NCBI GenBank assembly: GCA_965215045.1
Contig: OZ244031.1
Span: forward strand, 1,066,626-1,130,625
Direction of reading: 5' to 3'
DNA: 64,000 nucleotides
Source: Gammaproteobacteria bacterium
Lineage (GTDB): Bacteria > Pseudomonadota > Gammaproteobacteria > JABABF01
Position numbers and translations under genes: made by a program. Numbering within the stretch: the stretch's first letter is position 1; the number at the start of each line of letters is the position of its first letter. Positions 56,434 to 58,301 of the stretch are shown here, one piece after another. The notes under the pieces are model-generated. The model saw nothing but the letters and a program-made list of their open reading frames with translations. It was not told where the DNA came from and ran no database searches.

Positions 56434-56563
56434 TCCCCATTATTTCCAGGTTTTCCTGTTCCTCCGGGCCAGCCCGCAGGCCTCTCCCCCGCTGTGCACC
56501 CCGGACGATGAGCCTCCAGAATCCCATAAATTATGGACTTATATATTTTCCCGCAGGCGCGGT

Positions 56564-56592
56564 TTGACTTTCCCGCAGGAGGTGAATACAGT
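56564..56592 (+). promoter_or_regulatory. near-consensus sigma70 promoter of paralog 2 (TTGACT-17-TACAGT), flanked by a direct repeat of TTCCCGCAGG
   Basis: TTGACT 56564-56569, 17-nt spacer, TACAGT 56587-56592. TTCCCGCAGG occurs at about -50 and again within the spacer. Followed by an 80-nt conserved leader with a CCTCTggaaAGAGG hairpin, then AGGAGA ribosome-binding site and ATG 56679. Confidence 0.6.
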
Positions 56593-56678
56593 GTGATGCA
56601 GGGGGCCAGGGATTAGCAATCACAGGACGCGCGTATTACTTTCGCCCTCTGGAAAGAGGCAAAAAGGAGATTGTCACC

Positions 56679-57080
56679 ATGACTGAACCAGCGTTTCGAA
56701 ACCGCGAAGACATGAGCGAACACCTGAAGGCAGCCGGCTTTGACGACCAGCAGATCCGCAGTATCCTGCAGGTGGTAGCGGGGCTGATGAAAGAGATGGG
56801 CCTGGCCATCCGCGCCGACTTGGCGAAGAGTGAGCAGCGCAGCGATGAGCGTCATGAACGGGCCCAGAAACTCAGCGATGAGCGTCATGAACGGGCCCAG
56901 AAACTCAGCGATGAGCGTCATGAACGGGCCCAGAAACTCAGCGATGAGCGTCATCAGATCAACCTGGAATTGCATAAACAGGCCTTCTTATGGATACGGT
57001 GGGGGTTCGGCATGATCGGGTCTTTCCTGCTCGCCCTCCTGGGCATACTGATCACAGGTGTTATCAGGGGGTGGTTGTGA
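56679..57080 (+). CDS. small membrane-anchored coiled-coil protein, paralog 2 (DUF1640-like architecture)
   Basis: 133 aa. Same N-terminal 50 aa as paralogs 1 and 3. 3.5 copies of SDERHERAQKL from a perfect 33-bp DNA repeat at 56841-56957. C-terminal helix WIRWGFGMIGSFLLALLGILITGVI. Confidence 0.65.
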   Translation: MTEPAFRNREDMSEHLKAAGFDDQQIRSILQVVAGLMKEMGLAIRADLAKSEQRSDERHERAQKLSDERHERAQKLSDERHERAQKLSDERHQINLELHKQAFLWIRWGFGMIGSFLLALLGILITGVIRGWL

Positions 57081-57097
57081 TCCACTGCATCTGCCCG

Positions 57098-57220
57098 CAT
57101 CGCCCAGGGCGGCGACTGGGGTGCCCTGATCAGCACCGAGATGGGGCACCAGGACCCGGAAAACTGCGCCGGCGTGCACCTGAACATGCTGGTGGCGATG
57201 CCGCCTGCCTCAAAGACTGA
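57098..57220 (+). pseudogene. internally deleted fragment of the epoxide hydrolase gene (remnant of a tandem duplication)
   Basis: 57098-57204 matches hydrolase 54067-54177 (…IAQGGDWGA(M>L)ISTEMG…NMLVAMPP) and is joined at the 9-bp microhomology gccgcctgc to the last 12 nt of the hydrolase (ctcaaagactga; 54686-54697), removing about 508 bp. It carries several substitutions relative to the intact gene. Confidence 0.7.
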
Positions 57221-57431
57221 GGGAGACCCTGTCGGCTCCGCCCACCCGCCCCCCGGCTGCCGCACCGCCCGCGGTTTCCTGCTCCCGCACCGCCTGCCCC
57301 CGGCTGCCGCACCGGCTGCGGTTTCCTGCTCCTGCACCGCCCGCAGGCCTCTCCCCCGCTGTGCACCCCCGGACGATGACCCTCCAGAATCCCATAAATT
57401 ATGGACTTATATATTTTCCCGCGGGCGCGGG

Positions 57432-57460
57432 TTGACATTCCCGCAGGAGGCGAATATAGT
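57432..57460 (+). promoter_or_regulatory. near-consensus sigma70 promoter of paralog 3 (TTGACA-17-TATAGT)
   Basis: TTGACA 57432-57437, 17-nt spacer, TATAGT 57455-57460; the same conserved leader and ribosome-binding site follow. Confidence 0.6.
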
Positions 57461-57546
57461 GTGATGCAGGGGGCCAGGGATTAGCAATCACAGGACGCGC
57501 GTATTACTTTCGCCCTCTGGAAAGAGGCAAAAAGGAGATTGTCACC

Positions 57547-58215
57547 ATGACTGAACCAGCGTTTCGAAACCGCGAAGATATGAGCGAACACCTGAAGGCA
57601 GCCGGCCTTGACGACCAGCAGATCCGCAGTATCCTGCAGGTGGTAGCGGGGCTGATGAAAGAGACGGGCCTGGCCATCCGCGCCGACTTGGCGAAGAGTG
57701 AGAAACGCAGCGATGAGCGTCATGAGCAGACCCAGAAACTCATCGAGGTGCATCGTCAGGACAGCCTGGCTCGTGAGAAACGCAACGATGAGCGTCATGA
57801 GCAGACCCAGAAACGCAACGATGAGCGTCATAAGCAGACCCAGAAACTCATCGAGGTGCATCGTCAGGACAGCCTGGCTCGTGAGAAACGCAACGATGAG
57901 CGTCATGAGCAGACCCAGAAACTCATCGAGGTGCATCGTCAGGACAGCCTGGCTCGTGAGAAACTCAACGATGAGCGTCATAAGCAGACCCAGAAACTCA
58001 TCGAGGTGCATCGTCAGGACAGCCTGGCTCGTGAGAAACGCAGTGATGAGCGTCATGAGCAGGCCCAGAAACTCATCGAGGTGCATCATCAGACTAACCT
58101 GATGTTGCATAAACAGGCCTTCTTATGGATACGGTGGGGGTTCGGCATTATCGGGTCTTTCCTGCTCGCCCTCCTGGGCATACTGATCACAGGTGTTATC
58201 AGGGGGTGGTTGTGA
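57547..58215 (+). CDS. small membrane-anchored coiled-coil protein, paralog 3, with an expanded repeat region (DUF1640-like architecture)
   Basis: 222 aa. Same N-terminus. About 4.4 copies of a 25-aa (75-bp) unit RNDERHEQTQKLIEVHRQDSLAREK plus one 11-aa (33-bp) short unit, 57705-58100. Same C-terminal helix and GVIRGWL end as paralog 2. Confidence 0.65.
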   Translation: MTEPAFRNREDMSEHLKAAGLDDQQIRSILQVVAGLMKETGLAIRADLAKSEKRSDERHEQTQKLIEVHRQDSLAREKRNDERHEQTQKRNDERHKQTQKLIEVHRQDSLAREKRNDERHEQTQKLIEVHRQDSLAREKLNDERHKQTQKLIEVHRQDSLAREKRSDERHEQAQKLIEVHHQTNLMLHKQAFLWIRWGFGIIGSFLLALLGILITGVIRGWL

Positions 58216-58301
58216 TCCACTGCATCTGCCCGCATCGCCGACGCTACTCCCGCCTGCGGATGAGCCTGTAGCGTCTCAGCCGCCCCGCCGGCTGAAAGCA
58301 T

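What the first reader, a model, noticed from the sequence alone, without database searches (positions are those of the whole stretch)
56437..58300. Tandem duplication of a hydrolase-tail plus paralog unit, with a microhomology junction and a deleted hydrolase relic
Paralogs 2 and 3 are the two arms of a tandem duplication whose unit is [3' part of the epoxide hydrolase gene - spacer - promoter/leader - DUF1640-like gene]. The junction after the paralog-2 stop joins ...tccactgcatctgcccgcatcgcc directly to hydrolase-internal sequence (cagggcggcgactgg; 54074 onward) at the microhomology catcgcc. The duplicated hydrolase piece (57098-57220) itself carries a 508-bp internal deletion bounded by the 9-bp microhomology gccgcctgc, plus point differences, so the duplication is not recent. 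After paralog 3 the flank continues (58231-58282) as an inverted copy of the sequence following paralog 1 (14748-14800). This is a clear record of replication-slippage or microhomology-mediated rearrangement generating the paralog family.
Basis: seen in the sequence. Interest (0 to 1): 0.6.

Follow-up and report, generated by a model that had tools for sequence, protein, structure and literature searches.

The report
Old tandem duplication with microhomology scars
A 1.3-kb stretch running from inside an epoxide hydrolase gene to just past a small membrane-protein gene was copied head to tail at a 7-base match, and the spare hydrolase piece later lost 508 bases: a clean but ordinary case of how bacteria make gene copies.

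Summary

- **Junction:** 57098-57208 copies hydrolase-internal 54067-54177 (96%). It joins the 24 bases after the paralog-2 stop at a shared CATCGCC.
- **Deletion:** the relic lacks 508 bp between two copies of TGCCGCCTGC. That repeat is 10 bp, not 9.
- **Rest of the unit:** hydrolase tail, spacer, promoter, leader and gene follow in the same order as upstream.
- **One event:** outside the genes' internal repeats the two copies differ evenly (21/643 = 3.3%, homogeneous). Their homology runs upstream of the promoter, where the dispersed copies share nothing.
- **Age:** the duplication looks older than the 0.2-0.6% divergence between sequenced strains.
- **Second strain:** its short-read contigs stop at both edges of the region, one exactly 56 bp into the repeat shared by the two gene ends. 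This fits the same structure there.

Copy B serves as its empty site. Tandem duplication explains only paralogs 2 and 3, not the dispersed copies. The kind of event is well known, so interest is low to moderate.

The parts
53552..54697 (+). Intact epoxide hydrolase gene (381 aa), the parent of the relic
   Evidence: Pfam EHN 2.5e-36 and Abhydrolase_1 5e-17. It is 99% identical to P0001 from a second strain, and full length against homologues of 376-385 aa.
54067..54073 (+). CATCGCC, the parental left end of the duplicated unit (junction microhomology)
   Evidence: Pattern positions 54067, 57098 and 58233; alignment.
54168..54685 (+). Hydrolase segment bounded by two TGCCGCCTGC repeats (54168-54177 and 54676-54685). 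508 bp of it are missing from the relic.
   Evidence: positions, spacing of 508; alignment.
54698..54830 (+). G+C-rich spacer of copy A, holding the left copy of the direct repeat that flanks the R-M cassette (core 54803-54830)
   Evidence: The CCGGCTGCCGCACCG.. motif occurs only here and in copy B within the window.
54831..56449 (+). Inserted restriction-modification cassette, absent from copy B. It holds an N6/N4 DNA methyltransferase (about 55084-55832, with a 1-bp frameshift near 55560) and an IceA/NlaIII-family endonuclease (55822-56433).
   Evidence: Pfam N6_N4_Mtase 2.2e-32 over profile positions 1-221 of 221, but only when the two frames are joined; ICEA 9.9e-41. G+C is 50-56% against 60-70% around it. 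Three-way alignment with the uninterrupted copy B.
56450..56506 (+). Right copy of the direct repeat flanking the R-M cassette (core 56480-56506)
   Evidence: (56480-56506 = 54803-54830, 96%, one gap), (23-nt exact stretch, spacing 1677).
56507..56678 (+). Copy A pre-promoter, promoter (TTGACT-17-TACAGT, 56564-56592) and 5' leader of about 85 nt
56679..57080 (+). Paralog 2 (133 aa): conserved N-terminus, 33-bp x 3.5 perfect repeat (56840-56954), C-terminal membrane helix
   Evidence: Identical to P0121.
57081..57104 (+). 24-bp post-stop sequence. Its last 7 bases (57098-57104, CATCGCC) are the duplication junction.
   Evidence: 24/24 identical to 58216-58239; junction alignment.
57105..57220 (+). 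Hydrolase relic: 104 bp of internal sequence joined at the deletion scar (TGCCGCCTGC, 57199-57208) to the last bases of the gene. It is out of frame and non-coding.
   Evidence: Comparison with two other strains shows three relic-specific substitutions and one ancestral base kept.
57221..57374 (+). Spacer of copy B, uninterrupted, with a 47-bp unit present twice (57250-57341)
57375..57546 (+). Copy B pre-promoter, promoter (TTGACA-17-TATAGT, 57432-57460) and leader
   Evidence: The leader is 86/86 identical to copy A.
57547..58215 (+). Paralog 3 (222 aa): same ends as paralog 2, with the middle expanded by 75-bp and 108-bp tandem repeats (57701-58092)
58216..58278 (+). Native 3' flank of the gene module: the 24-bp post-stop sequence, then a conserved 3' element shared with paralog 1. 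Paralog 2 lost the element at the junction.
   Evidence: 58228-58278 = 14797-14747, 96%; alignment with paralog 1 and L005.
14718..15335 (-). Paralog 1 module (gene 14851-15207) with the same promoter, leader and 3' element, flanked by a 19-bp imperfect direct repeat. It is a dispersed copy, not part of the tandem event.

Best explanation
This is a real, fairly old tandem segmental duplication.

Proposed history:
1. The ancestor had hydrolase - spacer - promoter/leader - one small membrane coiled-coil gene - 3' element - SnoaL-like gene.
2. One illegitimate joining occurred between CATCGCC 18-24 bases after the gene's stop codon and CATCGCC inside the hydrolase gene. The likely route is unequal sister-strand exchange, template switching during replication, or microhomology-mediated end joining. 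It copied about 1.3 kb head to tail.
3. The left hydrolase gene stayed whole. A promoterless 3' fragment of it landed between the two gene copies.
4. That useless fragment later lost 508 bp between two TGCCGCCTGC repeats. The loss breaks its frame.
5. Each gene copy kept its own promoter and leader. Their coiled-coil middles changed length through smaller tandem repeats (33 bp in one, 75 and 108 bp in the other).
6. A 1.6-kb restriction-modification cassette then entered the spacer of the left copy with a duplication of the target sequence.

Shown: the structure, both microhomologies, the even divergence, and the extent of homology. Inferred: the molecular pathway, the order of steps 4 to 6, and that both genes are expressed.
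For: - Head-to-tail copies with one new junction and a 7-bp overlap.
- No extended repeat at the outer boundaries.
- Chance of such microhomology is below 1e-3.
- Divergence is homogeneous at 3.3% across hydrolase piece, spacer, pre-promoter, leader and coding ends.
- Paralog 2/3 homology continues upstream of the -35 box, where the dispersed copies have none.
- The relic keeps an ancestral base (C at the position of 54095) still seen in two other strains, and carries three changes of its own.
- Both paralogs keep strong promoter matches and intact reading frames.
- A second strain (GCA_964348175.1, 99.5-99.8% identical) has contigs ending at 54795 and at 58184. The latter is 56 bp into the 90-bp exact repeat shared by the two gene ends, as expected for a k-mer assembler meeting a branching repeat.
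- Junction microhomology of 5-25 bp without a flanking repeat is the recognised signature of non-homologous duplication formation (bioRxiv 10.64898/2026.05.22.727201).
Against: - No reads and no second complete assembly of the interval were available. The arrangement therefore rests on one assembly plus indirect contig-end evidence.
- The 222-aa paralog 3 is not in the public protein collection, although paralogs 1 and 2 from the same 2.08-Mb contig are. This is unexplained.
- The order of deletion and R-M insertion, and one step versus two steps, cannot be resolved.
- No relative with a single copy at this locus was found. The nearest genomes carry other genes there.
Confidence: 0.82

Rival explanations
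1. One complex replication event rather than two steps. A stalled fork switched template twice: back to the hydrolase gene at CATCGCC, then forward 508 bp at TGCCGCCTGC. That would create the duplication and the shortened relic together.
For: Both scars are microhomologies of 7 and 10 bp, only 111 bp apart. A related locus (L005) shows a relic with a deletion plus a small local reshuffle typical of serial template switching.
Against: Nothing distinguishes it from duplication followed by deletion. Deletions between short repeats in non-functional DNA are common in their own right. Substitutions lie on both sides of the scar, as either model predicts.
Confidence: 0.15
2. The gene module is a mobile cassette. 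Paralog 2 was inserted next to paralog 3 by the process that gives 'insertion with long target duplication', and the hydrolase tail plus spacer is the duplicated target.
For: In another organism (L005) the same module lies between dnaJ and dapB, followed by a two-piece relic of the dnaJ 3' end (about 215 bp of target, 97% identical). Paralog 1 is flanked by a 19-bp repeat. The module sits at different loci in different genomes.
Against: The left boundary of the supposed insert would have to coincide exactly with the start of the resident module, because homology between the copies runs on through 53 bp of pre-promoter and the spacer. Module and non-module parts are equally diverged. No recombinase is present and the module has no terminal repeats.
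Confidence: 0.07
3. Assembly artefact: two strain variants of one locus were placed in tandem, or a repeat was mis-expanded.
For: The source appears to be a metagenome-derived 2.08-Mb contig. Repeat copy numbers inside the genes cannot be verified without reads. Paralog 3 is missing from the protein collection.
Against: The copies differ at 21 scattered sites and in repeat architecture. The junction lies inside a gene at a microhomology. The relic carries its own 508-bp deletion and three private substitutions. False duplications do not make decayed relics. A second strain's contigs break where real repeats would force them to.
Confidence: 0.04
4. The R-M cassette was already in the unit when it duplicated, and was later lost from copy B by recombination between its flanking direct repeats.
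For: Flanking repeats of 28-55 bp could support precise excision.
Against: It needs an extra step. Copy B lacks the 27-bp extra segment of the left repeat and lacks the diverged left half of the right repeat, so any crossover would be confined to about 8 bp.
Confidence: 0.15

Closest known systems
Tandem duplications with short-junction or microhomology join points in bacteria (non-homologous, RecA-independent class; MMEJ or template switching)
   Same: Direct head-to-tail copies, a single new junction, 7 bp of microhomology within the 5-25 bp range quoted for this class, and no long flanking repeat.
   Different: Laboratory examples are usually large, unstable and recent. This one is small (about 1.3 kb), fixed long enough to diverge 3.3%, and has been further remodelled.
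Deletion between short direct repeats (replication slippage), as in classical lacI deletion spectra (my own knowledge)
   Same: 508 bp removed between two 10-bp repeats with one repeat retained.
   Different: It happened in a non-functional gene fragment, so it is seen as neutral decay, not as a selected mutation.
Insertion of restriction-modification genes with long target duplication (Furuta, Abe and Kobayashi 2010, PMC2853133)
   Same: An R gene plus an M gene, a small insert, no integrase or transposase, and direct repeats of target sequence on both sides.
   Different: The near-perfect repeat is only 28-29 bp, under their 30-bp cut-off. It reaches 36-55 bp only if later changes are allowed. 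The 'empty site' is a paralogous copy in the same genome, not a second genome. The methyltransferase is frameshifted.
DUF1640 / CCDC90-like proteins (PF07798)
   Same: Short N-terminal helix with an AGF-D..Q motif, a coiled coil, and one C-terminal membrane helix. Distant members found with the family profile pass the Pfam threshold.
   Different: The window's three proteins score 21 bits or less, against a cut-off of 33.5. The close family is very small: 13 hits in 1.84 billion representatives.

Membership tests
Microhomology-mediated tandem duplication | Two adjacent direct copies of one segment with a single novel junction (end of unit joined to start of unit) | tested here: met
   The sequence 57081-57104, identical to 58216-58239, is joined to the copy of 54067 onward.
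Microhomology-mediated tandem duplication | Short identity (about 5-25 bp) at the junction and no extended repeat at the outer boundaries | tested here: met
   CATCGCC, 7 bp. The flanks are unrelated on either side of it. Chance is 5e-4 to 8e-4.
Microhomology-mediated tandem duplication | All parts of the unit are equally diverged (one event) | tested here: met
   21/643 differences; chi-square p = 0.84; module against non-module Fisher p = 0.82.
Microhomology-mediated tandem duplication | Junction present in reads or in an independent assembly | tested here: inconclusive
   A second strain's contigs end at 54795 and 58184, at the repeat borders. No contig with the junction could be retrieved. 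The genome and metagenome scans found no close relatives.
Slippage-type deletion between short direct repeats | Missing segment bounded in the parent by a direct repeat, one copy of which remains at the scar | tested here: met
   TGCCGCCTGC at 54168 and 54676, and once at 57199; 508 bp lost.
R-M insertion with long target duplication (PMC2853133) | Insert contains both R and M homologues and is shorter than 20 kb, with no other mobility genes | tested here: met
   ICEA 9.9e-41 and N6_N4_Mtase 2.2e-32. The insert is about 1.6 kb. The ORF list shows no integrase or transposase.
R-M insertion with long target duplication (PMC2853133) | Target duplication longer than 30 bp | tested here: inconclusive
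   The core is 28-29 bp with one indel. It reaches 36-55 bp only if a 27-bp secondary insertion and a diverged half are discounted.
R-M insertion with long target duplication (PMC2853133) | An uninterrupted site carrying one copy of the repeat exists for comparison | tested here: met
   Copy B (57322-57400) is colinear with the left flank up to 54830 and with the right flank from about 56450. It is a paralogous site, not an orthologous one.
DUF1640 / CCDC90-like (PF07798) | Score at or above the Pfam gathering threshold (33.5 bits) | tested here: not met
   Paralog 2 scores 21.4 bits (E 2.4e-4). Paralogs 1 and 3 have no hit to this family.
DUF1640 / CCDC90-like (PF07798) | Profile-level link to accepted members | tested here: inconclusive
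   The family profile reaches P0136 (E 6e-4), which itself scores 41.2 bits on PF07798, and P0138 (31 bits). These are marginal E-values in coiled-coil-rich sequence.

The most novel reading that the evidence does not exclude
The promoter-leader-gene-3' element unit may be a small mobile cassette with no recombinase of its own. It would spread by replication-based template switching into the 3' ends of unrelated genes, each time duplicating the target gene's tail, which then decays by microhomology deletion. Seen here at the hydrolase and, in another organism, at dnaJ. The tandem pair would be one outcome of that process.
Probability: 0.1. Interest if true: 0.55.

Novelty: new member of a known kind. 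Interest (0 to 1): 0.25.

Why it matters
This is a tidy natural record of how a bacterial gene family grows by one copy. The join point, the leftover fragment of the neighbouring gene, its later shrinkage, and the divergence of the two copies by internal repeat changes are all still readable.

The second copy also preserves the pre-insertion state of the spacer. That lets an R-M cassette insertion with target duplication be read from a single genome.

None of this changes what is known about duplication mechanisms. Its value is as a worked example, and as a warning that this interval will break short-read assemblies.

Tried and rejected
- **Single-copy relatives.** The one genome-contig scan with the hydrolase gave only 52-56% relatives. 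Two metagenome scans, one with the protein profile and one with the conserved leader DNA, found nothing.
- **Source contig look-ups.** Exact look-ups of the window's own proteins and of source-contig proteins were not on record. The source assembly's gene calls could not be inspected.
- **Nearest retrievable genomes.** L004 and L009 carry DUF2238, a FUT8-like gene and an OYE reductase between hydrolase and SnoaL gene. They have no paralog there, so they give no ancestral state.
- **Leader as a known RNA.** There is no Rfam match at E <= 1. Five copies show no covariation because they are too alike.
- **Spacer and 3' flank as structured RNA or terminator.** Their folds are no better than shuffles, and the terminator scan found nothing there.
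- **Terminal inverted repeats on the R-M cassette.** None were found.
- **The spacer as a genome-wide REP-like element.** Its motifs occur only at this locus in the window.
- **R-M proteins or reverse-strand ORFs in the protein collection.** They are not present.

Full report
**What is there**

The interval 53.5-58.3 kb reads as follows:
- An intact epoxide hydrolase gene at 53552-54697 (EHN plus alpha/beta hydrolase domains).
- A G+C-rich spacer.
- A 1.6-kb cassette of lower G+C. It holds an N6/N4 DNA methyltransferase, whose domain is complete only when two reading frames are joined, and an IceA/NlaIII-family endonuclease.
- A promoter and leader, then a 133-aa gene, paralog 2 (56679-57080).
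- 24 bases, then a hydrolase fragment, then a second spacer, promoter and leader.
- A 222-aa gene, paralog 3 (57547-58215), and a short flank before a convergent SnoaL-like gene.

A third copy, paralog 1 (14851-15207, minus strand), lies 41 kb away.

**Checking the observation**

- 57098-57208 = 54067-54177 (96.4%)
- 57199-57317 = 54676-54798
- 57347-57374 = 54803-54830
- 57322-57834 = 56452-56957
- 57956-58239 = 56830-57104
- 58228-58278 = 14797-14747 on the other strand

The junction alignment shows that the post-stop sequence ...CTGCATCTGCCCGCATCGCC runs straight into CAGGGCGGCGACTGG of the hydrolase. CATCGCC belongs to both parents; it occurs at 54067, 57098 and 58233.

The relic then jumps from 54177 to 54686 at TGCCGCCTGC. 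That repeat lies at 54168 and 54676 in the gene and once at 57199. So 508 bp are missing and the repeat is 10 bp, not 9. Because 508 is not a multiple of three, the fragment is out of frame.

Microhomologies this long are expected at a random junction with probability below 1e-3 (7 bp) and about 1e-5 to 2e-4 (10 bp).

**Is it one duplication?**

Three tests say yes.

1. Divergence between the copies, outside the genes' internal repeats, is even:

| Segment | Identity |
|---|---|
| Hydrolase piece | 96.2% |
| Spacer | 96.0% |
| Pre-promoter | 96.2% |
| Promoter plus leader | 96.6% |
| Coding start | 98.0% |
| Coding end | 95.1% |
| Post-stop | 24/24 |

Overall this is 21/643. Homogeneity gives p = 0.84, and module against non-module gives p = 0.82.

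2. Aligning five copies of the gene's upstream region (three from the window, plus L005 and L006 from other samples) shows where homology stops. Between dispersed copies it stops at the -35 box, with 33-54% identity upstream. Paralogs 2 and 3 remain 97% identical upstream. So the tandem event carried DNA that is not part of the gene module.

3. There is only one novel junction and no extended repeat at the outer boundaries. This is the signature of the non-homologous, microhomology class of duplications.

**Age and polarity**

Two other strains of the same species are partly available: L003 and L008 from GCA_964348175.1, and L007 from ERZ21849000. They are 99.4-99.8% identical to the window.

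I used them to polarise the four differences in the hydrolase piece. Three are private to the relic. At 54095 the relic and both other strains carry C, while the window's gene has A. The relic is therefore a fossil of an earlier state of the gene. At 3.3%, the copies are far more diverged than the strains are. This suggests the duplication predates the strain split.

**Independent support**

No second full assembly of the interval exists in the collections I could search. However, the two contigs of GCA_964348175.1 that flank it end at window 54795, inside the repeated spacer, and at 58184. Position 58184 is 56 bp into the 90-bp exact repeat shared by the 3' ends of paralogs 2 and 3 (57015-57104 = 58150-58239). 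That is what a k-mer assembler does when a repeat has two continuations. This is consistent with the same structure in that strain, but it is not proof.

An assembly artefact in the window itself is unlikely. The copies differ at scattered sites, and the relic carries its own deletion and substitutions.

Copy A is interrupted. A three-way alignment shows that copy B is colinear with the left flank up to 54830 and with the right flank from about 56450. The cassette between them is flanked by GCCTCTCCCCCGCTGTGCAC(C)CCCGGAC on both sides.

This matches the described pattern of R-M genes inserted with a long target duplication and no other mobility gene (PMC2853133). The near-perfect repeat of 28-29 bp is just under that paper's 30-bp criterion, so I leave membership open.

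The methyltransferase has lost one base near 55560. That is either decay or a sequencing error.

Tandem duplication explains only paralogs 2 and 3.
- Paralog 1 is a 599-bp module flanked by a 19-bp imperfect direct repeat.
- A fourth paralog (P0127) lies elsewhere on the same 2.08-Mb contig.
- Relatives sit after trpC (L006) and between dnaJ and dapB (L005).

In L005 the module is followed by a relic of the dnaJ 3' end. It is in two pieces (7011-7054 = 5658-5701; 7072-7137 = 5809-5874), with an internal deletion and a small local reshuffle. This is the same layout as here: gene tail, module, decayed tail relic.

That parallel is the basis of the more novel reading, a cassette that spreads with long target duplications. 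I rate it at about 0.1. For the window's pair, the equal divergence and the homology beyond the module favour plain duplication.

**The gene itself**

The three proteins share a conserved N-terminus and a C-terminal membrane helix, and differ in a repeat-built coiled coil. They score below the PF07798 threshold. A full profile search finds only 13 relatives in 1.84 billion representatives. The farthest of these do pass PF07798. 'DUF1640-like' is therefore a fair description, not a demonstrated membership.

**Verdict**

1. The deletion microhomology is 10 bp.
2. A later R-M insertion splits copy A.
3. Only the paralog 2/3 pair arose this way.
4. The molecular pathway is not resolvable from sequence.

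The kind of event is well known, so interest is low to moderate.

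Noticed in passing
window 54831-56449: A restriction-modification cassette: an N6/N4 methyltransferase followed by an IceA/NlaIII-family endonuclease whose start overlaps the methylase end by 11 bp. G+C is 50-56%. It is flanked by a 28-55 bp direct repeat of the spacer. 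The methyltransferase needs a 1-bp correction near 55560 to be read through, while the endonuclease frame is intact.
   Followed up: partly
window 14718-14736 and 15317-15335: The paralog 1 module (599 bp) is flanked by a 19-bp imperfect direct repeat (17/19; the 13-bp stretch ACACCGGTTTGAC is exact). The repeat equals the module's own 5' end, so the downstream copy looks like a head-to-tail module junction. It also supplies the TTGAC of a good promoter match in front of the bacterioferritin gene.
   Followed up: partly
window 14805-14864: Three tandem copies of a 17-20 bp G-rich unit that includes the stop-codon region of paralog 1. L005 has two such copies, and paralogs 2 and 3 have one.
   Followed up: no
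window 56593-56678, 57461-57546, 15208-15292: The 5' leader of about 85 nt is as conserved as the coding sequence, or more so, between loci and organisms (88-95% against 79-92%), and is 86/86 identical between paralogs 2 and 3. A predicted hairpin pairs UUUC/UUCC with the GGAG of the ribosome-binding site. There is no Rfam match and no covariation to test it.
   Followed up: partly
window 56840-56954 and 57701-58092: The coiled-coil middles are built from tandem repeats: 33 bp x 3.5, all identical, in paralog 2, and 75-bp and 108-bp units at 95-96% in paralog 3. Protein length is therefore changing quickly (133 against 222 aa).
   Followed up: partly
L005 5658-5874 and 7011-7137: In another organism the same module, plus a 69-aa membrane ORF, lies between dnaJ and dapB. 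It is followed by a two-piece relic of the dnaJ 3' end with an internal deletion and a CTGGTT / CCCCGGGGTACCGC order swap.
   Followed up: partly
L006 4120-4172: The end of this public contig is Illumina adapter sequence (…AGATCGGAAG.GCGTCGTGTAGGGAAAGAGTGTAGATCTCGGTGG…). The last eight residues and the stop of protein P0124 are therefore an artefact.
   Followed up: yes
window 54698-58301 compared with L004 9144-12350 and L009 8640-12007: The interval between hydrolase and SnoaL-like gene is variable. Relatives at 69-82% protein identity carry DUF2238, a FUT8-like gene and an OYE reductase there. The window carries the R-M cassette and the two paralogs instead.
   Followed up: partly
window 57547-58215: The 222-aa paralog 3 protein is absent from the public protein collection, although paralogs 1 and 2 and a fourth paralog from the same 2.08-Mb contig are present. 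The reason is unknown; a different gene call or repeat filtering are possibilities.
   Followed up: partly
L007 1255 (equivalent to window 54136): A low-coverage contig of a third strain has TGA in place of TGC inside the hydrolase gene. At about 4x coverage this is probably a read error, not a real nonsense allele.
   Followed up: no
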